DNA of 64,000 nucleotides, from the NCBI GenBank assembly GCA_008632985.1, contig QPGO01000004.1, positions 620,001 through 684,000 on the forward strand, written 5' to 3'. The translations under genes were made by a program, and so were the position numbers. Positions 6,098 through 43,338 of this stretch are shown piece after piece. The stretch comes from Psammoneis japonica. Its lineage: Eukaryota. The notes below the pieces were generated by a model. It ran no database searches and was not told the DNA's origin. It saw only the letters and a program-made list of their open reading frames with translations. Within the stretch, counting starts at the first letter, position 1, and each line of letters opens with the position of its first letter.

Positions 6098-7663
<1,566 letters not shown>

Positions 7664-7832
7664 ATTCGTAGCTGGTATAATCGCGATAGCAAGAAAACTA
7701 AAAAGCACTTTCTTTGCTGTAAACAACCCTTACTGTAGTCGTATATGATATCATTTAAAAGTATCAACTACTACGTGTTCAATTTTCTACACATTGGCAA
7801 GATCGAATCATGCCGAACCGCATTGCTCATTC

Positions 7833-13418: not shown

Positions 13419-13644
13419 GGCCCTAGGGACTTTGTGTGAAGTTGTGGCGTATTTGGGGCTGTCCATGGGTGGCATGTGCAGCTTGTGTACGATACATAAT
13501 CCTTGGCATTTAGAATTGTTTGTGTTGAAATGTTGCAAAATTTGCGTCGTTCTTTTTTTTCTTTTTTTTTTTTAAAGCAAGACAGTCGGTCACAGAGCTG
13601 CTGATGGGTGTCATTGAAGCGTCTGGATGTTGCAACTTTTATAA

Positions 13645-14437: not shown

Positions 14438-14713
14438 TGACAGAAATTGAAGGCAAATGGCAAGAATTCAAACAACAACTCCTTGCTGCTGTCTAAATGG
14501 CAGATGAGTCTCCGCTCAGAGACCGTTGCAGGAGCCGAAAGACGTGCAAGTCGGTGTGATCGGGCTGCTGTCATTGTTCTTGTGAGCCTTGTGGCTCGAA
14601 AGCAAACTGCATCGCACGCGAACGCGCGGAACTAAAGCACACAAAACTGTGCGCGGCAAACTAAACAGCGCGCGACATTTCGTGCGCACCTGAATCCTGT
14701 TCAAATCCTGTCA
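14438..14713 (-). repeat. 3' LTR
   Basis: TGACAG...CTGTCA termini. Direct repeat of 21269-21544 with 13 substitutions by manual alignment. Confidence 0.96.
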
Positions 14714-14724
14714 CTCCCCAGTTT
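14714..14724 (-). other. Polypurine tract
   Basis: The minus strand reads AAACTGGGGAG immediately before the 3' LTR. Confidence 0.7.
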
Positions 14725-17700
14725 GCTTGAGGAGTCACAGAAACAGATTCGACTTCGGATGAAATGAAGTTCCAGAACATGAGGGGGCAGAGAAGGTCCC
14801 AGATTTGGGAGCAACCCCAATGCTTGCTGAGGATGTCAGCAGGGTTGCGGGAGCCTTCGATGAAGTGGAACTCAAGGCAACCAGAGGCAATTGCCTCACG
14901 CACACGGTGGAACGACAGTGCGGTGTGTCGCTTGTGTAACTTGGAGTGCGGGATGGTGGCACTGTCTACAACTGACTTGTTGTCACCGAACATGCAACTG
15001 ACATTACGGATCGGGACGCCAAGGTGGCGCAGGGTGATGTGCAGGTCAATGATCTGCTCGACACAAGTCCTTGCGGCAACAAATTCAGACCCGCAGGTCG
15101 CAGTCTCCACGGTGGCTTGCTTCTCAGAGAACCAATCAGCCGGGAATTTGTTGAGGAAGTGGAGCATTCCCATGACAGAGCGTCCGGTGAGCATGCAATG
15201 GCACAAGTTTGCATCGACGTAGTGGGTGGCAGTGACGAACTTGCCAAGGGGCAGTGGAGCGTCCTTTGGGATCATCTCTTCTGCTTCGCCGTACATGGAA
15301 TGCATCCATTCACAGGCTGGAGCAGGGAGATCCGAATGGTCGGGCTCTTCCGTGCGAACGCGGAGAGCACCGTGTCGCATCTTGGAGAGGCACCCACAGA
15401 CGCGTTTGGCACGATCCAAGTGGCCTTGACGGGGTGCAGCTCGGAAGCTAGAGAGTGACATGACGGCCGTGGCAATGTCAATTCGACCAAGGGACACTGC
15501 CCATTGGAGTGAACCAACAAGAGACTGGAACTTGTGAATGCCATCGGGTCCCAGCAGTTCGGAAGTGTCCAGTTCGGGGTGGTCACCCTTCTCCAGAGGT
15601 GACAGGGCGTTGGTGGCAGGTTTCTCCCCAAACAGTCAGGCGCAGCTGTCGACCATGCGCTCGATGTACTTGCGCGGAGACAGGCACAAGGTTCCGTTGG
15701 GATCCCAGGAAAAATCGCAACCCAGATGGAACTCAATGGGTCCCGCACCCTTGAGCTTGAACTTGCACTTTTCCGTGAGAGCATCGACGAAAGATTGAGG
15801 GTCCTTCATGGCAGTGGCGAGGTCATCCACACAAACGGCAATGTGTTCACAGTGGTCGCCGTTCCTGCGCATCCAAATGTCGGGTTCGGCGCGGCAGGGG
15901 AAGAAGCCTTCAGCTCGCAGGCAGTCGGCGAAGCGCTCGTGCCAGCGGAGACCGGAGCTGCACAGTCCATGCAGGGCCTTGTGGATGACAAGGATGTGTC
16001 CTTCGAGTTTGCCAAATTTGGGTCTGGCTGCAATGTAAAGCTTCTCCTTGGTGGTGGCTTCAAGGCAGGCATTGCCAATGTTGGTGGCCCATGTCTCCAA
16101 CTCGTTGAGTTCGGCCAGGAAAATCATCAGCCGAAGGCCACGGAGGGAGACCACTCCTGAGTAGACACCATCGACAGGTGCGTCCGTGAGGTGCCCGTCG
16201 GCTACGAGTCGTGCCTTGTGGCGACCGTCGTGTTTCACATCGTGCACTGGGTGCACTCGGATCTTCTTGTGTCCCACAGGAGGAGTGGAAGACTCGAAGG
16301 GCCCGCAGTCATGGAAGACTTTGCATTCGTCGAGTTGGCCCATCTCGAGATTAGTTGCGTCTCCCCATTTGCGGTTGCCGTTGCGTTCGTCTAGTGACAT
16401 GGCGTGTTTGTAGTTCCGGGGAACTTTGCATCCGCACTTGTGGCGAGGTGCAGTGTGGAAGGAGCAAAGCTTGGCTTGGTTGGCCATGCGAAATGGCTTC
16501 TTTTGGTGCCTCGCGATGGTGCGGAACCGCTTCCAGCCATCCGTGTCGAGGAGTCCGTTCTCTCGTGCATAGATGGCGCAGGTGACGGGGTCGTCCTTGG
16601 CGATGATGGCAAGAGGCTCGGACGTGATCTCCCCACTTTCCCATTCAAGCATGATGTTGTAGCTTGAGCCTTTCCAGGTTGGGTCATGAGGCTTCAGAGG
16701 TCCTTCGTGTGACACGATGCGTCGAAATTTCCAAACAGTGGTGTCTTCGTCTTCTTGCTCAATGTGATTCATGATGTCATTGCAGGCAAGGACTTCCTCG
16801 TGTTCGTCGTTGTTGACAGAGCAGACGAACTTAGTGAGCTCGGGATTGCCGTTCACTTTCCATTCATGGTCTTCGACGGCCTTGACGATGTGAGCTCTGT
16901 GGCGTTGTCCATCCTCTTGTGGTGTCCTGATCTCCCCATCAGGAGAATCGATGGGGTTGTCGTCATGGCGAGATTTGATGATGGGTTCAGGTGGCTCCCC
17001 ATCAGGAGGATCAAGACGCAGGTTTCGAACGGCAGGATCGGTGGCAGCGGAGCGGATGTTGGATCGGTGGAGGATCTTCTGAGTCTCGTCAGAGAGAATC
17101 TTGAAGGTCATCTGGTGGCCGACGTGCTCAGCAATGCCAACGAAGCGTCCACGCAACTCATGGGATTCGGACAGCCAATCGGAGTCATCGAGGTGGAAGC
17201 ACACGGGTTCCCACCAGTGAAAGCGAAGCAATGGGCTGATGTCCGGGGTGGAGCCAGTGAGAGTCTCGAGGGGCGTGCGCCAGTGGAGACGTGGGGACGC
17301 TGTGTGGTTGAGCATGAAGCACACATGCATGAGCGCCAGCAGCCATGTGTGGGCGGGCGAACCAAAACGATCCATGACAGTGTTCGCCATGCGCTTCACG
17401 GTCTGGCATCGACGCTCGGCAAAGTTTTGGTGTTGCTGGTGAGGCTCACTTTGCCAGCTGGAGATGAAGAGGGCCCGCAGGATCCCGAGCACTTTGTTGC
17501 TGATCTCAACTTGAGCACGGTCGCCAATGAGTTTGGATGGGGCACCACGCTCACGGATCTGATCCTCGAGTGTGTTGACAAACTCTTTGTCTGTCTTGGT
17601 GCCGCAGACGTCAGTGACGGTAGACTCGGTGCCAACAAACAGTTGGGCACTGGTGCAACCAGAGTCGACGGCCAGGGTGTCGGCATGAACGGTGTCAGTG

Positions 17701-20326
17701 GCGACAGGCTCGTTGCGGCGGTGCACATTAAGGGCGGGATTGGGTGATTTGTAGGCCTTCCTAAGGTGTGCACCGGCGGGCATGCGGGCGTGCTGCGTGG
17801 TGCAGTCAAAAGTACGACGGACCGTGTCGGCAGGTGGGAAGCCAAAGTGAGGCCGAAGAGACTCGAAGGGCGGGTCCTTGGGCTGTGCATTGCGCTCCGG
17901 GGGCGGGACGTCGGCGTCCTTGGGGTCAATCGCGTGTGGGTGACACTCGTAGAACACGTCGTTGTTCGGAATGAGGTGATCATCGAGGGCGGACGCGTGA
18001 TCGGCAGACAAGGAAGCGGACATGATGGTCTCGTTGACAACGACACGATGACGGCAGTTGCTGCACTCGTCAAACAGGTTGGCAGTGGGATCGTCCTGTG
18101 GGTCAGAGATCGCGTCGTACCACTGGTCGTCATCAGTGACAGAGTGATCGAGGACGGAAGGATCCCATGTGTCATCACCGGTGAGGATGACATGGGGCAG
18201 GGTGTCCCATTCGGCGTCAGTGCAAGGTCGCATGGCAACATGAGGCAGGCCGGCCTTGATGTCAATGGGGATGACACAGCCACCAGGAGTGGCAACACGT
18301 TGCAAGCCGTTGGGCACCTTGACAGAGCGATCGTTGACATCCTGTTTGTGCCATTCGAGCTGGCCACAGGAATGGATGGTCTTGCCCTTGCCCGTGCATG
18401 CGCACTGATGGAGGATGGCGATGACGGGACCACGCTGGGTCTCAATGACGGCACCAGTGGTGACAATGGGATGTCCACCAATTGATGATCGTCAATGCCC
18501 TGAACGTCGACTTGGCAAGAGGTGCGTGCAATGATGCGAACATCGTCGCCAGCAATGCCGCCGTTGGCCCCACGATCGACTAGAGCGCCAGTGCGTGCGG
18601 AGCGATGAGCAGAGGCAGAGCAAATGACATTGTGGTTGTTGACGCGGCGGCAAGTGCGGCCGTTAAGTTCCATGTCATCGGCAGAAGCTGGCGGGGTAGA
18701 GGGAGTGGCGGATGGCCCCGGTCGACCAGCATTGGGGGCTTGGTTAGGAGACAACAGACGGTGCAGATCACCGGGTGGCAGTGGCTTGCGCTTGGTGAGG
18801 TGCGCCAGGATGGGATTGTCCGAAGTGGCACCCACATTTGGAGCGGAGTCACCAGAGTCAGCAGGAGTCGTGTTGGACAAGTTGACATCACTGACACTCC
18901 CAAGGCGTTGGTCGTGAAGGTTGGCCATAACGGACTCATGGCAGTTGCTGTTTCGCGGGTTACGGGGAGGCGGACGAGAATGCGCAAGGATGATCGCCTT
19001 GGAGGAATGGGGCAACGAATCCCAAATCCGTTGGTGGTCGGGAGGGAGACGTTTCCATTGGTCACCGGTGAGGCTGGGACCACGGGTGTGGGCAGCATTG
19101 GCTTGAAGGACGTCAATGTCACTGTCAATGTCGTAGAACACATCGTCGGACGGTTCCTCGGAGTGGACGTCGTGTGCGTGTGTGGCACGTCGGGGAGCTC
19201 GAGGTGTCGTCTTGGGTTGAAACGCACTGTCGCATTGGGCTGCCGCGGAGAGGAGCAAGCCACAGCATTGATCGCATGTGAGGCTCTTGCCACTCTGCGT
19301 GCGATGCTGATCAGCTTGGTTCTTGACAGCACGGAGTTCCTCGACAGGGTGCACGGCATTCTCGAGCATGACGCGCTTCTGTCCTTCAGAGAAGTGGTCA
19401 CTGGCCGGGATGAGTGCCTCGCACTTGCGCAACTGATCTTGCCAATGAAGGATGAACCCGTGGGTCGGACCTTCGCACTTGCGCAACTGATCTTGCCAAT
19501 GAAGGATGAACCCGTGGGTCGGACCTTTCCAAGCACCATCACCAAGATGTGCGGTGGCAAGGTGCATTGGCAGGGTGGAGGACTCGATGGATGCGCGGGT
19601 GGAGGCGAGCGCGCACTCAGACAAGGCGCGGCAGACGGTCTGTGCGTCAGAAGACCCCACATTTTCGCGGATGAGAGCCTTGCCCTTGTCGGTGAGAAGG
19701 ATGCGTTCGAAGACGGCGAACATGCACATTTGCTGTTCAGCAAAGAGCAGTTTGTCTTCGGGGCTGGTCGGTTTGTACGACGAGTCTAGAATGCACTCGA
19801 CGTCTTGGGCACGGGCTTGTGCCACAAGTGAGATGTGCCAAGTGTGCCACTGCTTGTCGGATTTGAGAGCCGTGAAAGCAGTGGGATCACGCTTGATGCC
19901 TTGCTTGAAGTCCCGCACTGGGTCACGTGCCTTGGTCGGGTTGGTGACATGCGGAGGTGCGAGGGGTGAGCTGCCAATGGACACAGAAGACATGCAGTCG
20001 GGGCTGAGGCGGCAGGCAAGGAACTCGTCATGCGCGAACAACGAGGAGTCATTGGCAACGTCAAGACCTTTGTGTGCTTTGACAATGCACAGACTAACTG
20101 GAGCTGCCAACATGTTCTTACAACCACGGGGCAAAGGGATCACATTAGCGCCGTTGTCGCACTCAAGCGAGTCGATTTGGGGCGGCATGAATGTGAACAG
20201 TTCTTGACACGAGTCCATGCCGTCTTGTGCCAAAGCCAAACGGAGAGGGCTCCCAGCACCTTGGGCAAGCACGGTTCCAACAACGTGCTCGAAACCATCG
20301 GTTTGTTGCTGACGAGTGAGAACCAT
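14714..20326 (-). pseudogene. Hypermutated gag-pol polyprotein
   Basis: Start MVLTRQQQ at 20326. Protease LVDRGANGG. Integrase ATDT..., GDRAQ and QNFAERR. RT KHDGRHKARLVA and CVDD (from YVDD). RNase H KQATVETATCGSEF and NPADILSKHW. One frameshift near 18469 and one TGA at 15636-15638. Confidence 0.93.
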
Positions 20327-21268
20327 GGCAGACAAAAGTGGTGTCAGGACAAGCAATTCTTGTTGGGAAGCGAAGGCAGGCTTGAAGCTTGGGTGAGAAT
20401 GGACTTGACTTGAAACAGACTTGACTTGAAATCTTGATCTATCTTAAAATCAGAAGTCGCCGGGCTTTGCTGTCCCGTTCGTTGTCAAGTGCTAAACTTC
20501 CTATCCAGTCCGCAGAGTTGTGCCGGCATGTCCGAACCCGCAGCTGGTGGCGCTTTGGGTTGCTTACGAGCGGAGTGGCGGGTTGTAAACCCCTGCAGGC
20601 AAGCTGACCAGAGGTGGACAAGACCCCCGAACCGTTCTTATTTTGTGTCGGTTGGATTTCCCGATCAGGCTGGCCAGTTGACGCAGGCGTCAGGCGCTGT
20701 GGACGAACGAACAAACGCAGGAAAGAAGCACCCTCGCCCCAACGCAGGCTGCAATCACGGCTGCTTGCTCTCACAGTCGTCCTCGTGGACCCAGCAGAAC
20801 TGTGGAGCACCAGCAGTCCGGGGTGGATCAGGTGCAATGGACTCGGTGTGCTTGCAGAGTGGCAGCAAAACCGCAGTCCGAAGAGTGGGCACAGGTTCTT
20901 GGCCGTGAAGACATGCACACACACACATGTCTTCAGCGACGAAGATCCTTGAATGTGCAGGGTTCTTGACCGTTGACCGATGAATGGGCATGTCAAGGGA
21001 TGAGGATCAAGGGTGGACTTGGACATGACCGTTGAATGCATGTCTTCAGCGATCAAAGGCAGCACAATCAATCCAGATGTCCAGCAGCAAGGAGACTTGA
21101 TGGTGACGTTAACTTCCTGCCGATGCCCTGGTGTTGAATGCGCGTAGACTTGCCGATGCATGTAGAACACACACGGAGGTCCACGTAGAATTGAAACAGC
21201 ATCGTTGGTAAATCAACGACGACGATGGCGGTTGCTCAATGGGTTGACAATGAGCAAGACTGTCAACC

Positions 21269-21544
21269 TGACAGAAATTGAAGGCAAATGGCAAGAATTC
21301 AAACAACAACTCCTTGCTGCTGTCTAAATGGCAGATGAGTCTCCGCTCAGAGACCGTTGCAGGAGCCGAAAGACATGCAAGTCGGCACAATCGGGCTACT
21401 GTCATCATTCTTGTGAGCCTTGTGGCTCGAAAGCAAACTGCATCGCGCGCGAACGCGCGGAACTAAAGCACACAAAACTGTGCGCGGCAAACTGAACAGC
21501 GCGCGACATTTCGCGCGCACCCAAATCCTGTTCAAATCCTGTCA
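21269..21544 (-). repeat. 5' LTR
   Basis: Matches 14438-14713 and is followed by the TSD CTCTT. Confidence 0.96.
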
Positions 21545-21549
21545 CTCTT

Positions 21550-22510
21550 GATTTGTCATCTCTGCCTGTGATGTCTGCAGTGTGGCCACACCAGCATGTG
21601 ACAAGTGCAACACACATTGAGTGTGTTTCTTTTTTGATGTGTTCCAGTCCCAGGTGATGCATGCAACGACAATTCATTTTGAGTGCAAATTGTGCTCTTC
21701 TCATCTGGTGTGAAGCATTTTCACAAAAAAACACTTGAGCACATGGGCTTTTGTGGGTGTCCAAAGCATGGGCAGTTGGGTGGGTTTTTTGTTGGCATTC
21801 AATCCTCACAGACTCAATGCCAATTGTGCAACAGTGCATTTTGCATGGTGAAGCCTTCGCAGACAGAACACCTGCTGCTGCTGCTTCAGAAACATCACAC
21901 CAAAAAATTTGTGCCAACACATGTGCAAACATTCAAGAACACATGCAAGTCTTCAACATCATTGCAAAAAGTCATGTGTTGTGTTGCAATTCTTTTGTTG
22001 CAATGAAAAACTTTGATGGCGCCACAGAAACAATGATGTTGTGTGACACTGAGGCGAGTCTTGTCAGCATTGCAAAACATTGACACTTGGACAAACTCGT
22101 GCTTTTGGTGGCAAAAGCTTGGTCGCAAGTCAGAAACCACACAAAAGTTGAGCAAATGCCACATGTGATTTGGTTCACACATGGCTGGAACACATCTTTT
22201 GTTGCTGGCGCACTCTCTTTCCTCTTCTTTGTCTCACTTCGCTCCTGGCTGGGGGGCTTTCAAGAAGGGGCGGCACACACAGGCGGTTTCTCCAGCAACG
22301 TGAAAATTTGACTAAGACTGCAGAGACACAACAGCACTTTTTGGATGGGAGAAGTTTTGAGTCCTTGTGGGGTCACCTGGGTTGCAGCAGCAGCAAGTTG
22401 TTCGTCAGCTCGGCTGACGGTGTGGCAGCAAGCAGCAAACTGAGCCACGGTGGCCAAGCCAGCCATCACTTCTGGCAATTGACACAACCAAGATCAACAA
22501 GCCAGCGCCA
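21550..22510. mobile_element. Degenerate repeat, right part of the sequence interrupted by the copia
   Basis: TpA almost absent and CpG-poor. It joins the left flank at the TSD. No recognisable gene. Confidence 0.45.
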
Positions 22511-22841
22511 TCTACTCTAGCTAGAACAAGCAACAAGCACAAGGCAAGCAGCGCAAACGACAAGCGCAAACAGCAAAGTTCAAGACTGGAGGTCGACGAA
22601 CACCAGCCCAAGAGCCAAAGGTAGGAAACTGATGGCACAGAGCTTCGAAGAAGAGCCCGCAGAAACCTCCAGCTGACACGCGTAAAAATCTACGAACGGA
22701 CAGTATGCTTACGTCATGATTTTTCAACTGCATCCATCCGATGCCGACGAGCGACGAAGATCGACGACGCGACACAAATAATTTGACTCTAACAGAGGCC
22801 AACGTAAGCTCTCTTTTTATTGACTGAATACATCGCTGATC

Positions 22842-29859: not shown

Positions 29860-31429
29860 CAGTGTTCAGCGGGGTAGGGGGCGGAGAATGATGTCTCGTC
29901 GATCGAGTGATGAGGAGGAGTACTAGTCGTCTTCCCTCTTCCCCTCTTTTGTGTCGCCCTCAAAAAGGCAATGCCGCGCCACGTACGTCAGAACATACTG
30001 AGAAATGCGTGGAAAGTGACCTTGTGGTGACAATTATTGCCCCTGAGACGTGGCAAAATTGGGTGCAACAATGAATCTCGGTGAGGAACAAGCTGAATCT
30101 TCTGGCAGTCCTGCCGCACAGTGCTGCGTAAAGCGGTGTTGTGTGCTGCACTTTGACGTGTCACTCCGCTGGATTAAAAGTCAGCGGTGCATCCTCAACA
30201 AAATCTGAGACCTCGCACCTTCCAGTGCTCTCTGCTGATTGCTTCTCTGCCATGGATGACCTTTTCCCTGATGACCCCACCGAATGTTTTCTTGGCAACC
30301 CCTGTCGCTGAGCCCCTCTCCAAGTTTCTCTGCCACCCTGATGACCTCGTGCCTTCTCTCTGCCGTCCATTCCCACACCCCACTCTTCGACTCTGCCCGC
30401 GCCTTGTGCCCCCAAGACACCTCTCCTCTGTTCTGCTCTGCTGCCACCACAACTGTCTCCGTGCCTCCCTCTGCTGTTCCCTTCCCCATTCTGCACCACA
30501 GGCTCTTCACAGCTCAACATCTTGAAACAGATGCTCGTCTGCAGAGACGAGAGCTGTCATTGAGAAAAGCCATTGCTCTGCTGGCAGAGCTGTGTTGGCA
30601 TTTGTCAGCAGCCCTGTTGACATTGTTTGACAAAGCTTTGGAGTTCATGGTCATGCTCTCCTCTTTTTCTGCCAGCAGCACAGAGTGCCCAGCAGCACCT
30701 TCCTTTTTGCCGTGCACAAGAAGCACTGCAGCGGAGCACAGTGGGCTGCAATGGGCACCCCCTTGACTGAGTCCGGGGCACAAAAAATGGTGCAGTGATT
30801 TTTGGCTGTGCTGTGTGGCATGGTGCACTGTTCAGCCCCAGCAAATTAATGTCAACAAAAGGGAGTCTTGCCTTGCTGTGTGTCAGGAGGCTTCCTGCGC
30901 TGCTTCGCACACTTGCCTTGGCAGTGTGCGTGCAATGGCCATGGGTTGCCAAAGGTGTCAACATGCAAACTGTGAACTTGTGCAATGACAGGGGCCTGTT
31001 GATGCCAAACAATGACTCCAAAGAGTGAGATGAAAAAAACAAAGGTGAAAAATTAGAAACTGGCAACGGCAAAAATTTTCTTGCAACCAGTCACCCGTCG
31101 CCCCTCACCAGGAGTCAAAACATCTTTTCTTCACAACCCATCCCAGTTTTTTTATGATTCTCATGGTCCAGATGTTCCAACAACTTCTGCTGCTTGCATC
31201 AATCATGTCACACCTGAGCACCTTGCATCCAGGGAAAACTGATCTCCCTGTGGCGTGGCAACCACAACGCCGCCAGACACATCTGTTGCTTCAGCACTGA
31301 CATCCTGCAAATCACAAATGTGCAGGTTGGCACACAATCCATTGTCAGAGCAATCAACCATGTCATCAAACAAGCATGCTGCACCCAATGCACACTCCAC
31401 AAAATGCTCTGCATGAGTGCGATGAGTTC

Positions 31430-32070
31430 TCTCTCTTGCAGCTGTGCTGTCCAAGAACTCCACCAACTCATCAAAGGCATGGTCCAAAATTTTGAAACTT
31501 TGCAGGGTTGACTGGCATCACCATTGATGAGGTGCAAGATTGCAGATGACATCACAGATCCAGGCTCTGCTTGGACTCAAAGAGCAAACAACACTTGAAA
31601 TCTTTGTTGACTTCCTCCATCCAAGCCATGATTTCTCAGATCTTTGTGGGGCTTGGCTCCTTGAGAACACATTGCAGATGCCGCTTCTGACTCTGAAGTG
31701 CATTCTCAGGAACAGTGTGGTTGGAGAGGCAGTGCTGCCATTTTTCAAAGGCTCCTTTGTCTTCAATGTTCATCACCTTGTTCTCAAAAACTCACAGAGC
31801 ATTCCCTTGCAACATCATGTGCACAAGTTGGAACTTGTCACCGGCTTGTTTCTTGACACTCTGGCCCACCACAACTTTGCTGAATGTTTTTAAAAATTTG
31901 ATGTGCTTGGGAACTCTCTGCTTGTCATGGCACTCAACATTGATCATGTGGGCATGACTCTTCTTGTCTTCTGGATGAAAACACTGCTCCATCTTGAGAC
32001 GTTGGCTTGGTTTGAGCATCTTTGGCTTGGAAATCAACTCAAGTGGCATGGAGGCAATCTTCTGCTTGAT
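31430..32070 (-). mobile_element. Ty3/gypsy-like gag remnant
   Basis: Fragments KFQLVHMMLQGNAL, FPENALQSQKRHLQ and DHAFDELVEFLD resemble gag proteins of diatom gypsy-type elements. Recognised by motif recall, not by a search. Confidence 0.5.
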
Positions 32071-32549
32071 GGTGTGCTTTGTGGCAGATGCTTGAGGTGA
32101 AAGCTTCATTTTTGTGTTTTTGCATTTTGCAGTGTGCACACACAATGCACTGTGCTTGAAGAATGAGTGCAAACCAATGAAAGCAGAGCAAATCACAAAA
32201 AGTGGAAATCATGAGATTGGATTTTGCTCTGTGATTTTGGGTTTCTCCAAATGAGTTCTCAATGCCCCCCAAGCATTTGCACTGCTTTCACAGAGCAAAA
32301 GCCTTTTGAAAAATCTGGTCATTGCAACAGATTGTCTTGATGTGACCAATGTTGACATCTTGTGTGTGAACATTGTCTGTCAATTGTGTTTGCAATTTTG
32401 GACATCCAATCAATTCTGTGTGATCAATCTGACCTTCTCACACATCCTTCACAATTGTCACATGACTGACATGTGCATCAGTGTGCAACTGCAAACAAGT
32501 GCAATTTCTTCTGCTCAATGATGCTTGTTGCCGCTGCACCTCTGATCAA

Positions 32550-32776
32550 TCAAGTTACATGTGGACACATCATTCATGGTGCAACCTCAGAGGAGGAGTT
32601 TTGAGCATGGGCAATGGAGCAGTGCAGAGGCTGTGTCAAAACACCAGAAGCTCAACACCCAAAGCAGCACAGAGGCTGAACCCACAGAAGTCAATGACAC
32701 AATGACCATGATTCTGTGGACAAAGTTTTTCATGGATCATCAGGGGCATCCAATTGACAAGAACAAAATTGTTTGA
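32550..32776 (+). mobile_element. Ty1/copia RNase H fragment
   Basis: HVDTSF...SKHQKLNTQSSTEAE...ILWTKFFMDHQGHPI. Confidence 0.85.
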
Positions 32777-33359
32777 TCCAACTGATGCCAAGTCTGATGC
32801 CACCAACAAGTCTTGCTCCAAAACCAAGGATGGATCTCACCGTGGTCCCAAAAATGGTCATCAATCTGGCATCAAGTGATCTGAGTCTGACAAGTGGTGC
32901 AATTGTTGCAAGAAAACCACTCACAACATGGACCAGTGTTGGGTCATCAAAAGACTGGCAAAAAAAAGCTTGGAGAACACTGAACAAAACCTGAAACAGC
33001 AATTTTCAAATGGAAGTTGCACGTGGTGCTGTCATCATGATGCTCTCAAAAGGAAGAGTTGTTGAGTGCCATGATCACTCAGCCAGTCAACAAATCTCTC
33101 ACCAAGACAAGTTCCTCCACAAAGATTCAGAAGTGCAAGAGTGAGGAACATGACTCAGACACCCTCAGTGAGGAAACCCATCAGTTTGAAAAATGACTTG
33201 CAGTGATTCTGAGGAATGACTGGCACTTGCAGAGGAGTCTTGTGCATTGTGGGACATTGGGGAGCCCGGGAAAGGGCTGGAGCAATTCATGCCAGTCCAG
33301 TGGTCATTGCTCACATGAGTGCTTCCTTGGGAAAGGAGAAAAATGAGCATCTGGGCTGC

Positions 33360-34385
33360 ATGTTCTTCTTGACAGTGGAACATCATCAACCACAATTCTG
33401 CACAAGTTCACGGCAAAGTTGAGAAATGAGAAATGTGCTGCCAAGACTTGGGAAACCAAGGGTGGGTTCTTTGCAACTGACAGCCAATGCTCAGCTCAAT
33501 TCTCACCGCCTGAATTTGATGAGCATGAGTTCATTAAGAAGACGGCACATGTTGATGACACACTGCTGCTTCTTCAAGACATGACATGATCATGCGACAT
33601 GACTTGATCAGCATGAGTTGATTGGGAAGACAGCACATGTTGATGACACACTGCTGCTTCTTCAAGACATGACATGATCATGGGACATGACTTGATCAGC
33701 AGTCATGGAGTCACACTTGGTTTTGCAAATGAAGAAAGCAAATGGGAAGATGCAGGCGCACCAATGAAAAATGCCAACACAATCTTTGATGCCAAATTGT
33801 TCAAGCTGAGTGCTGATCACATTTTAGAATCTCACGCTGTGAATCACCTCAATGACAGGATCCAAAAAAAATCCTTGATGCTGACTGCCATGCTGCCAAA
33901 CTCAACAATGTGACTGCTGCAGCAACACATCTGACCCCAGAGGAACAGAAGCAACCAAACTTTCTCCTCAAAAGATTGGAACCTCTTTTTGATGGTTCTC
34001 CAGGTGAGTGGACAAGGAAGCTGGTGGATCATGATAAAAGGTGTGTTGTTGTCACACCCGAATTTCAGCACGCCCTTTGAGACATGTGCTGATGTGAGCA
34101 ATTCTCAGTTGGGAGTGGCCACAATGCAAAACAGCAGTCCTGTTGCCTTCCACAGCTGCAAGTCAAATGGAGTGCAGATGTGACACCCTGTGACAGAAAA
34201 AGTGCTTCTGTCCACATGTGTGTGTGGATCACAAAAATCTCACCCATGAGAATTTCACAATGGACAGAGTCATGTGTTGGCATCTGATGGTTGAAGAATG
34301 GCTGCAGCTCCAAAGTGATCTGTCTCAAGGGTGACAAAGCCAACGTCATTGCAGATGCAATCAGCTGGCTCACTGTGAAGGAAAT
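33360..34385 (+). mobile_element. Ty3/gypsy pol remnant (aspartic protease and RNase H; RT largely deleted)
   Basis: Protease LDSGTSSTTI, WETKGGFF and RHDMIMGHDL. RNase H LLSHPNFSTPFETCADVSNSQLG...PVAFHS, DHKNLT and NVIADAIS. Confidence 0.8.
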
Positions 34386-34994
34386 GGACACTCTGTGCAG
34401 CATTCCATGCACGTGCTGCACAGAGTGGGAGAAAAGATCTTGCTGGAGAAAGATTCTCAAAAATTAGAACAGCTCTGTGCCTTGTGCTGGGCCTCATGAG
34501 ACAACAACGGCACACATGGCACCGTGCTGTGCAGATCAAATGTGGTGATGTCATTGACACTGTCAACATCAGTTGAGCAGCTCCATTTGTCAAATGACCC
34601 CAATGTGCAATTGAGGAGGTGAGTGCAGCATGTGTTGCTGAGCATGCTCATGTTCACAACTGTGTGTTTTTGCACAGCGTGTGTCAATCATGCAACAATC
34701 ATGGATGTGCGCAAAGGTCATGTCAATCCCACAGAATTGATCAAATGTCCAAAATTGCAAACACGATTGATGGACAACTTTGACACACATGACATCACTG
34801 TTGGCTGCATCTGGACAATCTGTTGCCAATGTCAGATTCTCTGAAAGGCCTTTGCTCTGCAGGAGCAGTGCAAAAGCTTGGGCCATTGAGAGCTTGTTCA
34901 GAGAAACCCAAAATTGCACAGCAAATCCAGTCTCACAATTTCCACTTTTTGTGATTTGCTCTGCTTCATTTGCACTCATTCTTCAAGCACAGTG

Positions 34995-37900
34995 CAGAGG
35001 TCCTTTGTGCTCAGCATGGTGACTTCCTTTTGTGTCCTGTTCAGGTGCTTGACACAACAGAGACCAGCTTTCCCCAGTCCTTGTTGGTTGGCTTTCTGAC
35101 TTGTGTGAACCATGCTGCAAATGCAGGGTGCACATCCACAGCCTCTCTTGGACACAAACAGTCCCTTGGCCACCCACCACACAATGTGGAGCATCATCTT
35201 TGCTTCATCAGCTGGCAATCTCATGCAGCTGGTGTCAAGTGGGTTCTCTCCAGCTGGTGTCATGGCAGCATCTGCAATCTTGATCTCTTCCAGGAGCTGT
35301 TCAGTCATGTTGCAAATGCTGTTGGTCATGCAAACTTTCTTCACCTTGCCCTTGGGGCTGAAGTCCAGGACCATTGTGAGGTGATCATGCTTCTTCCTTG
35401 TGTTGCAACAGCTTCACCATGGCTTCCACACATCTTGTCAAGCCAGCTTGGAATTTTGTCATTTGCTTTTGGGTTTAACATGGCTTGACAGCAGGTCATC
35501 TACATGGAAATGTGTGGCACGCCACTTGCCATTGACTGCTTGATTGGCAATGTGCAGATTGTGTGGGTTGAATTTGACCCCAATTTTTTCTAAGTCCTTG
35601 CAAAGTTGCTTGTGCCGCAGCAGAGTTGTGACCAACATGCCACACACAGCTCCAATGTCTTGGGTGCAGAGGACTCTCTTCCCCTTTTCCATGACCACAT
35701 GTGATCCACACAGGCCAGGATTGATGCTGCTGACATGTTGACCAACACTCGTGCAATCTTCATCATGAGTCAGTCTTCACCCTCCTCAGGTTCCAAGGCT
35801 GGTGTCCAAATGAATGTGCTTGGCACAAAAGCATTCATCACATCACATGCTCTTCTTCTGTGGTGTCAACCATGGCTGTCATCAGCATTCCTTCCAATGA
35901 TGTTGTCAGGCTGGCTGAGTTGTCCTTGTCCAGCCATTCTCTGGTCAGTTTTCCATTGCAGACCGCCTGCCCTTTCACACAACCATCTTGTTTCTCCACT
36001 GGGGACATCCAGGCAATCACAGCCTTGGCCCTCTCAGTTGGAGTCATGTCTTCAACTGACATTGGTGCAAAGCACAACCTGTCATGGGGTTGTCTGATCT
36101 CCTTCTCCGAAGCATCACACCCTTTCTGGTCAAATGCTTTTGGGCCTTCATGCAGCAAATGCTGCTGGGCAAAGGAAATGCCCTTTCCTCCCAATTGGAG
36201 TCAGCCCTCAATCTTGCACATGAGTTGTGCCAGTGCTGTTGCTGCTTCCATGTCATGCTTGATGTTGTCCTCTGGGTTGGGACACTCATGTTCATTCACA
36301 AGTGGTGACAGTTTTTGAGTTTTGCGGTGTCTGCTGTGGTGTCTGCCACTCCCGCAAATTGAACTTTCTTCCCTTGGCATGTGTTCTTGTGTTTCTGAAT
36401 GTGTGCTGTGGTGTGGAAGGCTCTGCCAGACCTGGTCCTCCCAGCAGCCAGTCATGTCCATTGCCTCATCTGCTGGTCTTTCTGCTTCCCATCTTTTGAC
36501 TTCTTGGCATTCATTGTCTTTGACTCTCCTCACTCTTTGCCACCCTTGTTTTCTTTGGCATTGTTGCAGCCATCGCACCCCTTGTCCTTGATTTCATTGC
36601 TCTCATGCTGTTGATCAGGGCTGGATCTTTCATCCACTGGGATCTCATTTGCTTCTTTGCACTCTTCACAAGAGTCCCTGCTTCATCTTTGCTGTCATCA
36701 TCTTCTGAGTCAGTGATGATGTTTCTGGTTTCATCTTCATTTTTCTTCATTTGCATCTTTGTCATCACTTTCATCTTCATTGCTTCCCACCCCTGCAGCC
36801 CAACCTGCGCTGCACAGGTTGTCTCTGTGTTTGCCTTTAAATTTAAAATCTTTGATCCCTTGTGCTGTGGCTGTCTTCTTGACTGCCCACATGTGTGTGT
36901 TGGTCAGGGGTGTGACAGTGGCCTGCACTTGCAGGGATTCAGAAACTTGTCCATGTGCAGGTTCATGGTGCAGTGGCTGCCCTCAGCAATGTCAAAGCAT
37001 GGTCACAGACACATGCTGTCAATGCCATGCATGTCCAGCATGGTGTTTTTCAGGTTGTTCTCAATGTGAGGCAGGACAAATTTCCCAAAGGCAAACTCAA
37101 AGTGCTTGTCACAGTCAAGGTTTCTTCATTGCACAACAGTGGGTGTGGACTGAGCATGTCAGAAATTCCTTCTTTCTGTGGGTGCATCTTCAACACGGCA
37201 GTGACATTGATCATGGTGTTCTTGTGCATCAACTTGGGTGTCATCTTGCAAGGCAGATGGTGCACAGTGGCTTGAGTTTGCTCTTTGTGGGACTCAATGC
37301 TCCTCTCAACTTCAGGAACATGGTCCTCACTGTTGGTGTTCATGGACATCAGTTCCAAGTTCACACCATTGGCAACTTCTGCCAGCATGTCCTTGAACTT
37401 GGGATCACACTCAACAAAGTCAATCTTGAACAAAGCCATGTTGTGCTGTTGGAGGATCATGTCCAGCACATCAAACACATCAACATGCTTCTTGGACCTC
37501 AGTCTCACACTTGATTGGCACTCAATCATCTCATGTGTTGCACGCAGCACCCATGCAGCACCTCAACTCCACATGTTTCCATGGGATCAATGCAGAGGAT
37601 CATACCTTCTCTCCTCTTCTCATGTGTTCAAGGTGGGATGGCTGCAATGTTGCTCCTCTCATGGGAGCAATGTGCCCGCTTGGTCTGGCTTTTTAAAGCA
37701 TCTGTTGGTGGACCCCAAATGGCCACCATGCTGTCCACATCTTTGGGTGTGATGGACAACTTCTTCACCTGGGTTGAACACAAAAATGACTTGAACTCCC
37801 TCACACTGGGACTTCCAGGAGCCTTGCAGCATGGTCTGAGAGTGCTTGCTCAGTGCTTGCTGCCTCTCTCTTGGTGCAGCCCATGGAACTCTGTTCCATC

Positions 37901-39200
37901 ATCAGAGCCACAGTTCCAGATGCACCCCTGTGCTTCTTGTTTCTCTTTTTCTTGACTCACTTTCTTGGAGATCTTTTGCATTGTTGAAGAATTCCTGGGT
38001 TGGCACAAAAGCATGTGGCCCAATGCCATTGACTCTGAACACTGCGACTTGTTTGCCAGTCTTCTTGTCTGGCAGCCACAGCTCGTCCACCACTCAGCTG
38101 GCATGTGTTGCACAGCATTTGCTCTTCACATCCTTTGAACTGAGAATCTTTGCCATCACATTCTCTGATCCAAACTTCATGTCTCCCCATCCAGGCATGG
38201 TGCAGTCCTTGTCTGGGGCATCCACTCCTGCACTCATGGGGATGGACCAACCCCAAACCCCAACCCTTGCCAATCAAACATTGTGCACTGGTCTCTGGCT
38301 GCTGCTGCGCTGAGGGTGGAATCGTTGTCAAGGATGATCTCTTCCATCTTGATGCCCACACTGGCTCAGCTCATGCTTGTCTCTGGTCTTTCATTTGCCA
38401 GTTGCAACCCATGCCATGCAGTGCTCCTGATTTGCCTGGAGCAGGTTGATTGGTCAGATCTGGCAGTGTCAACACTCATGTTGTTGCTGTCCACTGATGA
38501 GTGGTCATCATTCCCAACATGTGTTTGTGCATGACTCTGTCCCTCAATGTCCAGCTTCCCTCAGGCATTCTTGATTCAATTGTCACACGCAATGTCTTTT
38601 TGATGCTGCTTGCAGTCCAGGGACTTGTGGCTCAGTTTGCCACAACAACAGCGACACACCACAGCATCATTCTGGCTGCTCTTCTCTGAGCATGGCTCTG
38701 GTCCTTTGTGTTGTCAGACTGACAGTTGTTCTTGTCATTGTTGTTGCCATTCTTGCCATCTCTTCCTTTGTTTTTCTTCCTCATGTGCAAATTGCAAGGG
38801 TTGTTGTCTTTCAGACAGTTCAGCAATGCAGCCATTGCCTCCTCAGCAGTCATCTAAAATCTTGGCAAACACACATGTCTTGCTCTCTTTGAACTGCTTT
38901 ACTTTCTCATGGTGGTCACTCAGCTGTGCTTTGTGCTTGAACTCCAGCTCCTTGTCCTTGTGCTCTTTCTTTTGCAGAGCATCCCAGCAAACTTTAGCTG
39001 TTGTGTCTGATGGCACAGTTGCTTGTCCCCTTCTGCCACACTCACCAAGTGCACTGGAAGTGTGGGTTGGCTGGCACCAGCGCAGCCAGCAAAGGAGTGA
39101 CAGCATTTAAAAATTAGAGCTGTCATTTTTTTGTGGCACAGTTGCTGCGGGTGCTTTTAAGGTGGGTTTTTGGGATCAAAATTCTTGCATTTCATGTCTT
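34995..39200 (-). mobile_element. Old degenerate Ty1/copia element (gag-PR-IN-RT), different lineage from 14438-21544
   Basis: Protease IILDNDST (~38330). Integrase EDHVPEVERS (~37310). RT KQDGCVKG...NGKLTREW (~35960) and FHVDDLLSSH (~35500). Many frameshifts. Confidence 0.85.
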
Positions 39201-42200
39201 CTAAAGAACTTGCCATGTGCACACCATGTTCGTGCTCCTTCTGCATGCAACAGACAATGATCTTCTCTTTGACATCTTCTCATGTGGCATTGCAAGGAAG
39301 TGTTGCTGTTCAGTGATGAAGGATGGAGCTTCATCTCATGCTGAAATGCTTCTCAGTGTTGGTCTTCTTCTTTGAGTTAGATTGCCTGTGCCTCTTGTCA
39401 CCTCTGCCATGACCACAACTTTGGCCTCTTCGTTGTTTGTTCTGCCACCTCCTCTGCCACTCAGTGTGCAGGCATTCAGTGTTCAACTGACTGTGTGCAG
39501 GCCAGCACATGAAAGCACTGAGTGCAGCACCAGAGCCACTTTTTGGAGAGTGAATGTTGAGCCAGCAAGTCAATGCAACCAAAATGGAATCCTCTCAGGC
39601 TTCCTGCACCACTTGAAACACTTGCCTCAGTGATCTGCAATGGCTGTGGGTTGCCAAAGGTGTCAGTGTAAACTGCAAACTTGCATGACGACAGGCACCT
39701 GCTGATGCTGAATGACAAATTGTGCAAACCAAATGAGGGCTCACTCCAAGGAGTGAGATGAAAAAACAAAGGTGAGAGGTTGGTGATGGCAAAGCTTTTC
39801 TCACAACAACAAGCCACCCAGCAAACCATGTCAGAAGTCAAACATCTTTTCTTCAACCCACCTGAGTTCTTTGTGACTCCCATGATCTGGATGTCAAAAC
39901 ATGCCCACAGAAGCATGTGTCTGCTGCAAAGGACAGCAGAGCCTTGAGATGAGAGAAAACTGGCCTTGTTGACTTTTTTGAAGTTTTTGCAAAAAAGTGG
40001 AGAAAAAGGACTTTCTGGTGGCACAAAAAATTGTCAAAACTGGGAGTTGTTGTCAGAGAAATTGCCCTCTGTTCCATCTGTTAAAAAAACTTTTTCTGCT
40101 TGGCTCTGCACACAGCTCTCATGCACAAGGAAAATGTGCATCCGCCAACCTTGGCACAACCATGGCATGGCACATTTGGGTTGATTGCCGCTGAGGCTTG
40201 TGGTGTGAAAGTTGCCAACACACAGCATTCAACCAAGACACAGTGAGAGCAAATTGTTGAATGCAGCACAGGCTGTGCTCAAGGCATGCTTTGCTGATTT
40301 GCTCAAAAGCTTTTCCAACAATCAACAATGAACTGCCTGCTTGCACTGCCAGGAAGGAGCTTTTTCTTTCTCTTGTGATTTGCTGGTGTTGTGTGTTGTG
40401 GCACAGCTGTGCAGCATGCTCCACGCAAGGTGGCGCATGAGCACAGCTGCCATTGCACTTCATTGTCATGGGATGGATGCACTCCAGCTCTGGGTGGGAC
40501 CCAGAGTGCTGCTGAACTGTGACACTGATGTTTTTTGTTGTGTGCCACATGTCATGCAAGTGCATTTCCACATGACTTTGGTGGAACTTTGTGTCATTTT
40601 GCAGTGCAGTTGTTGAGCAATCCATTCAACAACTGACTTTTGACAGTTTTTTGTGCAAAGCCATTCTTGAACATCTGCAGAGTGGTGCAGGGTGCAGGGC
40701 AGGGCAGATTTTCAAAAACTTTGAGTGTGCAGAGGCACAAATGCACTGCAAACTTGGTCATTTGTTCGTGTGTGTTGAAGACAAACATGCCCAGCATTGA
40801 CAGAGTGCACAGTGCAGAGATCACATGCAGAACTCTGCAGGCCCAGAAACTTTTTTTCAAAAAACTCAGCTCCATTCTGTGTGGTGGGATCAGTTGATCT
40901 CGTGCTTTTTGCACAGGGCTTTTTGCACCTTCCCACTCAACAACAGTGCTCTCCCTCCGAAAAGTCCACACAGCTGCAGCAGCTCACCTGCACACACTGC
41001 TTTTTCTGTTGCAAATGTTGCAGCATCAGATTGTGTCAGAGGCTTGTCGCAAAACATGCACTTTTGCACCCTTCGCTGGCTGTGTTTGTCAATCATTGCA
41101 TTTGCTGTCACTGTCACTGCTCACAAACTGGTTTTGTGTGCACTGTTTTTGCCTTTGTCTTGAAAGGGCTTTGGCGCATGCTGCTGCTGCTGCTGCTGCA
41201 GCATGAACCTGCTCCATTGTCAAGCTGGGGCAATGTTGACTGCAAGCCATCTCAATGCCCAAGAGAGTGTCTTGTGTTTTTTGCTGAAGGAGCTGATTTT
41301 TCAGCAGCAGATGTGCATTGCATGTCTCTGGAAGACACCAGTGTGGTCAGGCACAAGTTCAAAGGATGCAAATGCAGGAGGTTCGTGCTTTTCCAAAGCA
41401 AAGTCCCCAGAGAACAAGGGCTTTGCCAATGCTCAAATTCCAGCAAAGCAAGGCTCTGGCACAGCTTTGTGAACAGGAGCTGGCAAATGGCATGAACCAA
41501 GCCACCAGCACTGATGCCAGAGACAGTCTTGTGTCACCCCAAATGCAATGAATGTTGTGTGTGAAAGCCTTTTTCAGTCAGCTGCCAGAGCGCATCAGGC
41601 TCCATCATGGTTTTAGATGCTTGCAACTGTTGCCAACTGCCTGTGCTTGTCAGGAGAGAGGAAAAACAACCAAACAACACTTGCCAGCAACCCACAGCAG
41701 ATGTCTCACACAAGTTGTCAACGACCCCCAGAACAACATCCCCACCATTCATGGATGCAATGGATGCTGCCTGCATTCCTCTGCTTCCTGCTTCTGACAG
41801 ACCCTGTTTGCACACCACTTTGCACAATCTTTGGAGCTTTTCTTCCACTTTCACCTGCTGTTTGGCTCTTTTGTCAGCTGTCAATCACATGAAATGTGCA
41901 AGCGCCATTGTCCTCAAATGTCGACTTTTTGCTGTGCAGCCATTTCAGAATTTCAGCCACAGTTTTCACTGGCAATTTCACAGCATGTGAAACCACTGTC
42001 CAGCAACAGAAATTTGGTGGAACACTTTGCACAGCAATGCACACATGTGTCTGTGGCAGCAACCTGAGCAAGAGCCTGCCACTTGCTTCATGTGGTGAGC
42101 AGGCTCCACATCAACTGTCAACCAAGTGGAGCTCAAATTGCTTGACAATGTCCTCATGCAGCCCTTGTGTTTTGCCCCATTGTTTGGGCACAACAATGGA

Positions 42201-43338
42201 GCAGTTTCACACTGCAACAGCATGCCAAAACCCTTTCAAGACAAAGTGAAAAAACAGCACACAAACCAGCTTGTCAGTGGCAGTGGTGACAACTGCGAAT
42301 GAAGCGATCGACAAACACAGCAGATGGCACACAAGTGAGTTTTCATGACAATCAGGGTTTTTTGCATTGACCCTTTTTTAGTGTGGTGATGGGCTGCCTT
42401 GCCTCCCTCAACTGATGCCACAACAGCGTGCACAGAACAGAGACAGTGCGAGCACAAAAGGTGAGCCGCTGCAACTGCGGGTGTGCCAGAAAGGGGGGGG
42501 GAGTTTTGTTGTCAAGTGAGAAGGTGCAAAAAGCCTCATGTAAAAAGCACAATGTGTGTCTGTCCATTCTTCATGTGTCTCCACAGAAAAATGGTGGGCC
42601 GAAAGTTGTTCATGTCACACGGAGTTCCAGAACGCGTTTGCGGCAGCACCGCTTTTTGTTGGGGCACCTTTCGATGATGGTGCACAGCGGTGATGTGGAG
42701 ACCATTGCAGTGGCCTTTTTGCATGAAAAAAGAGAGAACCGATTGAGGTGGAGGCCGGTGTGAGGCTTTTTTCTCATCCATCCGAAGGTTTCAGCTGTTG
42801 GGGGGTTGTGGTCGACGGGGGGGGGCAAAAAATGAAGGGCAGCAATCGGGTGTCAACAGAGTGTCATCGCACCCTGACACTCTGACACTAATGCTTAACA
42901 GCAGTTTTCTTCCCAATTAAGAGTCCTAATGATCTTCGAAATTTTTAATTAAAAATAATATTGTGTATGAATTTAATATTACATTCGCTCATGTTGAATT
43001 AAGAATTGACGCCAAGGTCAGTATGTTTCCTACGCTCCTCACACGTACTTCTTGTCTCGCGTGCGTCACACTTATTTCCATTTAACGCGCGAAAAATGCC
43101 GCTGAGCGAATCAATCTGTCGCACAGAAATACGCATCGGATGCATCACTCATTTTTCTTGACACCGCCTTCTGCCCAACGCGACACTCACGAATCATGAT
43201 CGGAACGAGAAAGCGAGCAGCCGAATATTAGTTTCTGTGACATTCGTGTCAGTAGCAGCAGCCAATCACGGCTGGGGCGACGGGAGTTCGGCGTCACTTG
43301 TAATCACATCCCATTTCTTCACCACAGGAACACCGAAA

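What the first reader, a model, noticed from the sequence alone, without database searches (positions are those of the whole stretch)
30180..42885. Two-stage decay: the old island lacks both TpA and CpG, the young element lacks mainly TpA
Seen: 36001-36600 has 0 TA and 4 CG by manual count, versus 1 TA and about 41 CG in 600 bp of the intact copia. Established: diatom TEs carry CpG methylation (DNMT5), and 5mC decays to TG/CA. Inference: TpA loss is much faster than CpG decay and separable from it. Both processes end in the same TG/CA-rich sequence, so the TA:CG ratio could serve as a relative clock for repeats.
Basis: partly seen in the sequence, partly recalled or inferred. Interest (0 to 1): 0.75.

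Follow-up and report, generated by a model that had tools for sequence, protein, structure and literature searches.

The report
Two-speed mutational decay of diatom transposons
In this diatom genome, jumping-gene DNA is rewritten after it lands: TA steps turn into TG or CA about 13-15 times faster than CG steps decay, so young copies lack TA and old ones lack both; a similar TA-directed process was reported in 2026 in an unrelated alga.

Summary
The counts are right: island TA/CG o/e 0.03/0.15, copia 0.16/0.87, host 0.58/0.97. An independent run's contigs reproduce the island. The copia is not intact (CVDD for YxDD, stop, frameshift). LTR pairs of 37 family copies show post-insertion TA>TG/CA change on both strands, about 13-15 times faster than CpG decay and about 120 times faster than other transitions. 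These are two concurrent decays, not two stages, and they rise together in young copies (rho 0.72). They are separable: 16 of 80 metagenome relatives lose CG but keep TA. The proposed TA:CG ratio is U-shaped (0.69 host, 0.11 young, 0.27 old), so it is no clock; the two values read separately sort DNA into three age classes. Also found here: a per-strand rule (A in TAY fastest, TAA slowest) and strong sparing of 5' LTRs (23 versus 190 one-sided hits). The signature is known from Bigelowiella natans (Mettrop 2026 preprint), and this scan noted it before on other pieces of this genome. The enzyme is unidentified; chromatin-guided adenine deamination is my lead hypothesis.

The parts
30176..42888 (.). 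Old nested repeat island lacking both TpA and CpG
   Evidence: Two-state segmentation; o/e TA 0.03, CG 0.15, TG 1.85, CA 1.91; nearest copies mostly 66-80% identical
36001..36600 (.).
   Evidence: 0 TA, 4 CG, 78 TG, 55 CA
31450..34996 (.). Rearranged old repeat family A, probably a Ty3/gypsy-type LTR remnant. Piece 31450-32447 lies inverted relative to other copies
   Evidence: Strand pattern of matches; family label inferred from the RNase H-like match below
32146..32471 (-). Terminal repeat of family A, arm 1
   Evidence: 77.6% identical to 34682-34996; 15 transversions in 305 columns
34682..34996 (+). Terminal repeat of family A, arm 2
34043..34222 (+). RNase H-like retroelement remnant
   Evidence: PF17919 E 2.6e-5, 24.6 bits, below the curated cut-off of 29.8
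34997..38850 (-). Old repeat family B; copia-type reverse-transcriptase remnant recognised by eye only (HVDDLL)
   Evidence: Many copies at 66-77%; no Pfam match and no tblastn match of 120 outside copia proteins
30176..30420 (.). Left island edge: TA gone, CG kept
   Evidence: 30201-30400: 0 TA, 8 CG
42300..42888 (.). Right island edge: TA gone, CG kept
   Evidence: 42601-42800: 0 TA, 10 CG; a TG/CA allelic swap at 42681-42682
14438..21544 (-). Young but broken Ty1/copia LTR retrotransposon, the comparator; at least 40 copies at 95-96% identity
   Evidence: target-site duplication AAGAG at 14433-14437 and 21545-21549
21269..21544 (-). 5' LTR (276 nt); spared from TA loss across the family
14438..14713 (-). 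3' LTR (276 nt); the 13 counted differences from the 5' LTR are all YpR transitions
15648..16280 (-). RVT_2 reverse transcriptase domain; motif tyrosine reads Cys (codon 15831-15833)
   Evidence: PF07727 E 3e-21; 116 of 118 outside homologues have Tyr there
13643..14437 (.). Older TA- and CG-poor DNA into which the copia inserted (left part)
21545..22512 (.). Older TA- and CG-poor DNA into which the copia inserted (right part)

Best explanation
Two separate, context-specific mutation processes act at the same time on silenced chromosomal repeat DNA in this diatom. (1) Ordinary CpG decay, CG>TG/CA, about 9 times the background transition rate per base; that it comes from 5mC is inferred from other diatoms. 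(2) A targeted TpA process, TA>TG/CA, about 120 times background. It hits each strand independently, prefers an A followed by a pyrimidine (TAT, TAC > TAG > TAA), stops once the TA is gone, accumulates after insertion, and is held off from 5' LTRs. Shown: direction, rates, context, post-insertion timing, 5' LTR sparing. Inferred: guidance by chromatin state rather than by sequence duplication. Most likely chemistry (about 45%): deamination of the adenine to hypoxanthine by a TadA/ADAT-type enzyme, as proposed but not shown for B. natans. A miscoding modified base on the T or A of TpA is the main alternative; TA is palindromic, so sequence cannot tell which base is hit. Result: TA is gone by roughly 0.5% pairwise transversion divergence and CG is near its floor by 2-4%, which gives a coarse three-class age scale.
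For: Direction: at 10 Tyr columns conserved in outside homologues, 30 copies hold TA 130, TG 107, CA 63 of 300 codons (an 11th column, TGG in all 30, was dropped). Arg CG is kept in 285 of 300, His CA in 210 of 210, Cys TG in 89 of 90, Trp TG in 179 of 180. Post-insertion: 37 of 40 elements had two LTRs, 32 with matching target-site duplications; 295 of 627 LTR pairs differ at TA columns, including 82 CA/TG swaps, against 73 of 738 at CG columns. Per-base ratios TA:CG:other transition:transversion = 119:8.9:1:0.22. Both strands: 191 TG and 186 CA events, no same-strand coupling (0.502 versus null 0.494). Context: a four-parameter per-strand model fits 10 residual-TA classes in 430 old windows (T 2.87, C 2.35, G 1.21, A 0.31). 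5' LTR: TA hit only in the 5' LTR 23 times, only in the 3' LTR 190 times (p 7e-34); 29 of 37 elements keep more TA at the 5' end. Order: 0 of 1771 500-bp windows have CG o/e <0.4 with TA >0.35. LTR-calibrated rates predict CG survival of 0.20 at 4% and 0.06 at 7% transversion divergence; the island has 4.9% between its repeats and CG o/e 0.15. Spared duplicates: six rDNA loci, a 99% identical silicon-transporter pair and a broken methyltransferase-like duplicate, L146. The same dinucleotide signature was measured de novo in B. natans on silent single-copy DNA.
Against: No enzyme or modified base is shown. The five TadA/ADAT-like matches are about what any eukaryote needs for tRNA editing (my knowledge); no expansion was seen. 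The TAY preference only loosely fits TadA: one paper calls TAC its motif but also says the 3' base has a small effect, and another found no downstream preference and no genomic editing for TadA-8e. In LTR columns G, not A, is the slowest 3' base (0.10 versus 0.15; 17 columns). The rates come from one family, from the 39 copies most like the window copy, and from 13 transversions (95% interval 7-22). Body columns mix inherited and new changes (intercept 0.46). Spared genes are also under selection. No methylome or chromatin data were seen. CG is also somewhat spared in 5' LTRs (26 versus 47, p 0.019), so the two processes share some control.
Confidence: 0.75

Rival explanations
1. Same targeting, different chemistry: a heterochromatin-deposited modified base at TpA (an oxidised thymine such as 5-hydroxymethyluracil or 5-formyluracil, or a methylated adenine) miscodes during replication, as 5mC does at CpG. 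This rival concerns only the enzyme step of the best explanation.
For: Accumulation is gradual and strand-independent and tracks CpG decay and private substitutions (rho 0.72 and 0.51). Both decays are patchy over about 200-400 bp. The genome has 27 C5-methyltransferase matches, and diatom DNMT4 is related to fungal RID with unknown function (PMC9998398 passages).
Against: No Tet_JBP match (that search's controls rang nowhere, so this is weak). I know of no C5-methyltransferase chemistry that gives T>C. Hypermutation in B. natans was on in only 11 of 15 lines.
Confidence: 0.3
2. Homology-triggered 'reverse RIP': duplicated sequence is recognised by pairing and mutated in episodic one-strand bursts, as in Neurospora.
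For: Targets are mostly repeats. A multi-copy methyltransferase-like gene array (L141-L143, L147) is TA-depleted with CG o/e 0.46-0.91. RID-related genes exist in diatoms.
Against: No strand polarity per copy (chi2 17.7, df 31) or per LTR. The 5' LTR is spared although it is the most repeated part. rDNA, a 99% identical gene pair and a broken duplicate are untouched. The B. natans NCLDV target is single-copy.
Confidence: 0.12
3. Editing during the retrotransposition cycle (RNA or cDNA, ADAR- or APOBEC-like), before integration.
For: Some TA loss precedes CpG decay (intercept 0.46). The 5'/3' LTR asymmetry could arise from how the two LTRs are synthesised.
Against: Both directions are equal between LTRs (191 versus 186). 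Loss grows with age proxies and goes to completion in old DNA. A non-retroelement gene array is hit.
Confidence: 0.07
4. General causes: GC-biased gene conversion, repair deficiency in heterochromatin, selection against TA, or an assembly artefact.
For: Host DNA is mildly TA-poor too (0.58). The run used for checking may be the assembly's own sample.
Against: A>G outside TA is rare (44 of 17,099 site-copies), and TG/CA products almost never go on to CG (6 cells). The changes replace conserved tyrosines in broken copies. Contigs of run X1 match the island.
Confidence: 0.04

Closest known systems
TpA-specific hypermutation in Bigelowiella natans (Mettrop et al., bioRxiv 10.64898/2026.01.13.699255; parts 1-4 of 5 read, supplements not seen)
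   Same: TpA>TpG/CpA transitions on both strands, confined to foreign or silent chromosomal DNA; TpA-poor, CpA+TpG-rich clusters that include transposon domains; enzyme unknown, ADAT2 proposed.
   Different: Rhizarian host, not a diatom. Measured de novo on integrated giant-virus and virophage DNA (rho TpA 0.45 there), whereas here whole transposon islands reach 0.03. The main text has no occurrence of diatom, CpG, LTR, trinucleotide or clock, so the rate relative to CpG decay, the 3'-base rule and 5' LTR sparing are not described in it.
Repeat-induced point mutation (RIP) of Pezizomycotina (features recalled; RID/DNMT4 link from PMC9998398 passages)
   Same: Dinucleotide-specific transition hypermutation that disables repeats.
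   Different: Opposite direction (RIP makes TpA from CpA). No one-strand bursts here, and duplicated genes and 5' LTRs are spared.
CpG decay of methylated transposons; DNMT5a-dependent CG methylation of diatom copia elements (PMC9998398, passages)
   Same: CG>TG/CA loss in repeats at about 9 times background accounts for the slow component.
   Different: Does not account for TA loss. 16 of 80 outside relatives show CG loss with normal TA.
TadA/ADAT and ADAR adenosine deaminases
   Same: A>G outcome with a 5' U/T preference; UAC/TAC motif for TadA (passages).
   Different: Native substrates are RNA. No enzyme has been linked to the pattern here.

Membership tests
B. natans-type TpA hypermutation | A:T>G:C transitions restricted to TpA, both strands | tested here: met
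B. natans-type TpA hypermutation | Confined to foreign or repeat DNA, host genes spared | tested here: met
   selection on genes is a confound
B. natans-type TpA hypermutation | Acts on chromosomal DNA after integration | tested here: met
   LTR-pair discordance
B. natans-type TpA hypermutation | Ongoing de novo rate about 1000 times background, active in only some lines | not testable with these tools
   needs mutation-accumulation lines; the historical average here is about 120 times other transitions
B. natans-type TpA hypermutation | Targets transcriptionally silent DNA, single-copy included | tested here: inconclusive
   TA loss within 400 bp of copia ends in 9 selected flanks, but the one flank searched genome-wide is itself repeated; no expression data
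B. natans-type TpA hypermutation | Same enzyme (ADAT2-like candidate) | tested here: inconclusive
   a 243-aa TadA-like frame with HAE and PCVMC exists; orthology and activity not tested
Fungal RIP | C>T transitions, mainly at CpA, creating TpA | tested here: not met
   TpA is destroyed; His CA codons unchanged in 210 of 210
Fungal RIP | Strand-polar bursts per round | tested here: not met
Fungal RIP | Triggered by sequence duplication | tested here: inconclusive
   gene array hit; rDNA, transporter pair, L146 and 5' LTRs spared
Fungal RIP | Needs RID and the premeiotic stage | not testable with these tools
   27 C5-methyltransferase matches, not assigned to families
5mC-driven CpG decay | CG>TG/CA about tenfold over background in repeats | tested here: met
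   8.9-fold
5mC-driven CpG decay | 5mC on these repeats; DNMT5 present | not tested
   no methylome; DNMT5 not identified among the matches
Ty1/copia LTR retrotransposon (14438-21544) | TG...CA LTRs, 5-bp target-site duplication, RVT_2 | tested here: met
Diatom host | Silicon transporter family | tested here: met
   24 PF03842 matches, best E 2e-208; supports a diatom but does not prove it alone

The most novel reading that the evidence does not exclude
A diatom lineage runs a chromatin-guided DNA adenine-editing genome defence. An enzyme reading TAY converts A to G across all silenced repeats, is kept off still-active 5' LTR promoters, works independently of DNMT5 methylation, and is the same pathway as in Bigelowiella. 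That would make it a natural DNA adenine base editor shared by Stramenopiles and Rhizaria and lost or muted in most lineages.
Probability: 0.3. Interest if true: 0.9.

Novelty: new variant of a known kind. Interest (0 to 1): 0.7.

Why it matters
The genome holds a large fossil record of a mutagenic process that I found reported only once, in a different supergroup, with no enzyme known. The record supplies what that report's main text lacks: a sequence rule (TAY > TAG > TAA), a rate relative to CpG decay, and a positional rule (5' LTR spared). These give a fingerprint against which candidate enzymes can be tested, in a group with established gene knockouts. Practically, LTR-divergence dating in such a genome overestimates age unless YpR sites are masked. 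Dead elements also keep long open frames, because TAA and TAG are erased, so they can be mistaken for intact ones, as happened here.

Tried and rejected
TA:CG ratio as a monotonic clock: rejected, U-shaped. One-strand bursts: none; adjacent-site direction agreement was only 0.54 versus 0.52 and may reflect shared ancestry. Leakage into unique flanks: TA o/e 0.07-0.25 within 400 bp against 0.49-0.60 beyond, in 9 of 30 flanks selected for normal distal TA. Left open, because CG is also low there (0.41-0.97), 2 of the 9 had repeat hits, and the one flank searched genome-wide matched three other places and no empty allele. Tet_JBP: no match, control uninformative. Phage collection search with an island piece: no match. 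Pfam on 10 island ORFs: none; six-frame read-through: RNase H-like matches only. No RNA holder listed. Generality: 79 of 80 metagenome relatives have TA o/e of 0.44 or more, but one search pattern requires a Tyr and short-read assemblies can collapse copies, so this is weak evidence of absence. Literature searches: diatom+TpA+transposable, diatom+transposable elements+TA dinucleotide+depletion (no paper), diatom+RIP, TpA+hypermutation+transposons, diatom+6mA, Bigelowiella+TpA, diatom+CpG depletion+DNMT5 (60), TadA context, TpA depletion+transposable elements+algae. In the listings shown, only the B. natans preprint described this signature; most subscription journals are not in the library. 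The arbitrary genome sample is 3 stretches of 50 kb out of 8 planned, and the surroundings of the methyltransferase-like array were not read.

Full report
1. Observation. The counts hold. Positions 36001-36600 contain 0 TA and 4 CG. The island 30180-42885 has 29 TA and 107 CG (o/e 0.034 and 0.148), the copia 53 and 483 (0.16 and 0.87), and host DNA 1614 and 2329 (0.58 and 0.97). Contigs of public run X1 match island pieces at host-like depth with 0-6 other letters per piece, so a long-read base-calling artefact is unlikely. The run may be the assembly's own sample, and its library type is not on record. The host is most likely a diatom: 24 silicon-transporter matches.

2. Anatomy. The comparator is a Ty1/copia element at 14438-21544 on the minus strand, with 276-nt LTRs and an AAGAG target-site duplication, inserted into older decayed DNA. 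It is not intact: CVDD where 27 of 32 copies have YVDD, an in-frame stop, and gag and pol in different frames. The island is a nest of at least two old repeat families, mostly 66-80% identical to their nearest copies. It includes an RNase H-like remnant (E 2.6e-5, below the cut-off) and a terminal-repeat pair with 15 transversions in 305 columns. The copia-type label of family B is by eye only. In three arbitrary 50-kb stretches, TA-poor segments cover 1%, 38% and 57%.

3. Direction and specificity. TG and CA can come from either TA or CG, so the change must be polarised. In 32 full-length copies, 224 columns hold TA 2600, TG 2701, CA 1761 and CG 6; 526 columns hold CG with 6.8% lost; no column mixes the two. 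Against 120 outside homologues, 10 conserved Tyr columns have lost TA in 170 of 300 codons, to both TG and CA (one further column fixed for TGG was dropped). Arg CG codons are lost in 15 of 300, and His, Cys and Trp codons are almost unchanged. A>G outside TA occurs in 44 of 17,099 site-copies. This excludes a general drift to GC.

4. Timing and rates. Of 40 elements, 37 had two LTRs. LTR pairs differ at 295 of 627 TA-column comparisons, including 82 cases with TG in one LTR and CA in the other, and at 73 of 738 CG-column comparisons; there are 13 transversions and 29 other transitions in 10,122 columns. Per base this gives TA:CG:other transition:transversion = 119:8.9:1:0.22. Across copies, TA loss spans 19-83% and CG loss 2.5-13.6%, with rho 0.72 and a median rate ratio of 14.8 (range 8-29). 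These copies are the ones most like the window copy, body columns include inherited changes, and the calibration rests on 13 transversions (interval 7-22).

5. The clock. The rates predict TA survival of 0.07 at 0.5% pairwise transversion divergence, and CG survival of 0.45 at 2%, 0.20 at 4% and 0.06 at 7%. The island (4.9%, CG o/e 0.15) fits. Of 1088 TA-poor windows, 820 had a relative; median CG o/e falls from 0.87 below 0.3% to 0.24 at 1-2% and 0.08-0.11 above 2%, while TA falls from 0.13 to 0.03. The windows overlap, and the youngest bin is mostly one family (315 of 360). The ordering is therefore real, but the ratio is U-shaped: 0.69 host, 0.11 copia, 0.27 island, and 0.10 rising to 0.64 across bins. 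Above 1% divergence CG does not track age (rho -0.09, n 355). Seven of 294 old windows keep CG above 0.4, and 43 windows are near-identical duplicates of already decayed DNA. The two values, read separately, sort DNA into fresh, young and old.

6. Separability. In this genome 0 of 1771 windows have low CG with normal TA. Among 80 metagenome relatives, 16 have CG below 0.5 with TA above 0.4, and only one has TA below 0.4. CpG decay thus occurs without TA loss elsewhere. The search favours unmutated copies, so rarity elsewhere is not established. Island edges keep CG where TA is gone (pooled over 16 junctions).

7. Mechanistic constraints. Events between LTRs are 191 TG and 186 CA, with no same-strand coupling. 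Residual TA in 430 old windows, compared with 279 host windows, fits an additive per-strand model set by the base 3' of the A: T 2.87, C 2.35, G 1.21, A 0.31. The 17 LTR columns agree that pyrimidines exceed purines but put G below A. The 5' LTR is strongly spared: 23 versus 190 one-sided TA hits, and 26 versus 47 for CG. rDNA, a 99% identical transporter pair and a broken methyltransferase-like duplicate are not hit, while a multi-copy methyltransferase-like array is. Apparent leakage into flanks is unresolved. I infer a distributive process guided by chromatin state. Adenine deamination is my lead (about 45%). TadA's UAC/TAC motif resembles the rule, although the same papers report a weak or absent 3' preference for evolved TadA (passages of PMC8065034 and PMC12296453). 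A TadA-like frame exists, but tRNA editing would need one anyway (my knowledge). A miscoding modified base is the main rival.

8. Comparison with what is known. Earlier notes of this scan reported the same phenomenon on other pieces of this genome and named a preprint; I used them as leads only. Mettrop et al. (bioRxiv 10.64898/2026.01.13.699255; parts 1-4 of 5 read; supplements not seen) measured TpA>TpG/CpA hypermutation in Bigelowiella natans on integrated viral DNA (the NCLDV region silent and single-copy) and proposed ADAT2. The main text does not mention diatoms, CpG, LTRs or trinucleotide context; their Table S2 may bear on context. The diatom process meets the signature, target and timing features of that system; identity of the enzyme is untested. 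It is not RIP: opposite direction and no strand polarity. CG methylation of diatom copia elements by DNMT5a is described for Phaeodactylum (PMC9998398, passages) and was not tested here. Nine literature searches listed no diatom report.

9. Verdict. The feature is real, and the fast-TA, slow-CG reading is right and now quantified. The ratio clock and the 'intact' label are wrong. It is a new variant of a kind reported once: a new supergroup, transposons genome-wide as targets, with a context rule and 5' LTR sparing that make the mechanism testable. Interest 0.7.

Noticed in passing
L141-L143, L147 (G000 C297, C301): A multi-copy C5-methyltransferase-like gene array, 88-96% identical between copies, is itself TA-depleted (o/e 0-0.2) with CG 0.46-0.91. 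Whether it rides in a transposon is unknown.
   Followed up: partly
L146 versus L137 (G000 C10): A broken duplicate of a C5-methyltransferase-like gene, 85% identical to the intact one, shows no TA bias.
   Followed up: partly
L224 (metagenome contig): The only one of 80 relatives with low TA (0.32) and Cys or His at 3 of 10 conserved Tyr columns; 67% DNA identity to this family. A candidate second host of the process.
   Followed up: partly
window 42920-42980: A half-depth contig differs at seven sites just outside the island edge; three are TA>TG or TA>CA, though one of these lies in a two-base change.
   Followed up: partly
L091-L129 flanks: Most copia copies sit in TA-poor DNA: flank TA o/e is above 0.35 in only 4 of 36 5' flanks and 2 of 37 3' flanks. 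None of the 32 matching target-site duplications contains TA.
   Followed up: partly
G000: 24 silicon-transporter matches, including three tandem domains in one 1511-aa frame on C38 and several broken copies.
   Followed up: no
L049, L052, L159: Old repeats (5-8% transversions) that lack TA but keep CG o/e 0.5-0.75: exceptions to the age scale.
   Followed up: partly
window 63544-64000: Start of another TA-poor island (TA 0.04, CG 0.30).
   Followed up: no
window 19419-19527 and 33516-33701: A perfect 54-bp tandem duplication in the copia gag frame and an 88-bp duplication in the island.
   Followed up: no
window 1886-13418 and 28687-63413: Ordinary host genes by Pfam: FMO-like, TIP49/RuvB-like, zf-MYND, cation efflux, HA-domain, amine oxidase, FAD-binding monooxygenase, PPR, DUF1295. 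Nine N at 14060-14068.
   Followed up: no
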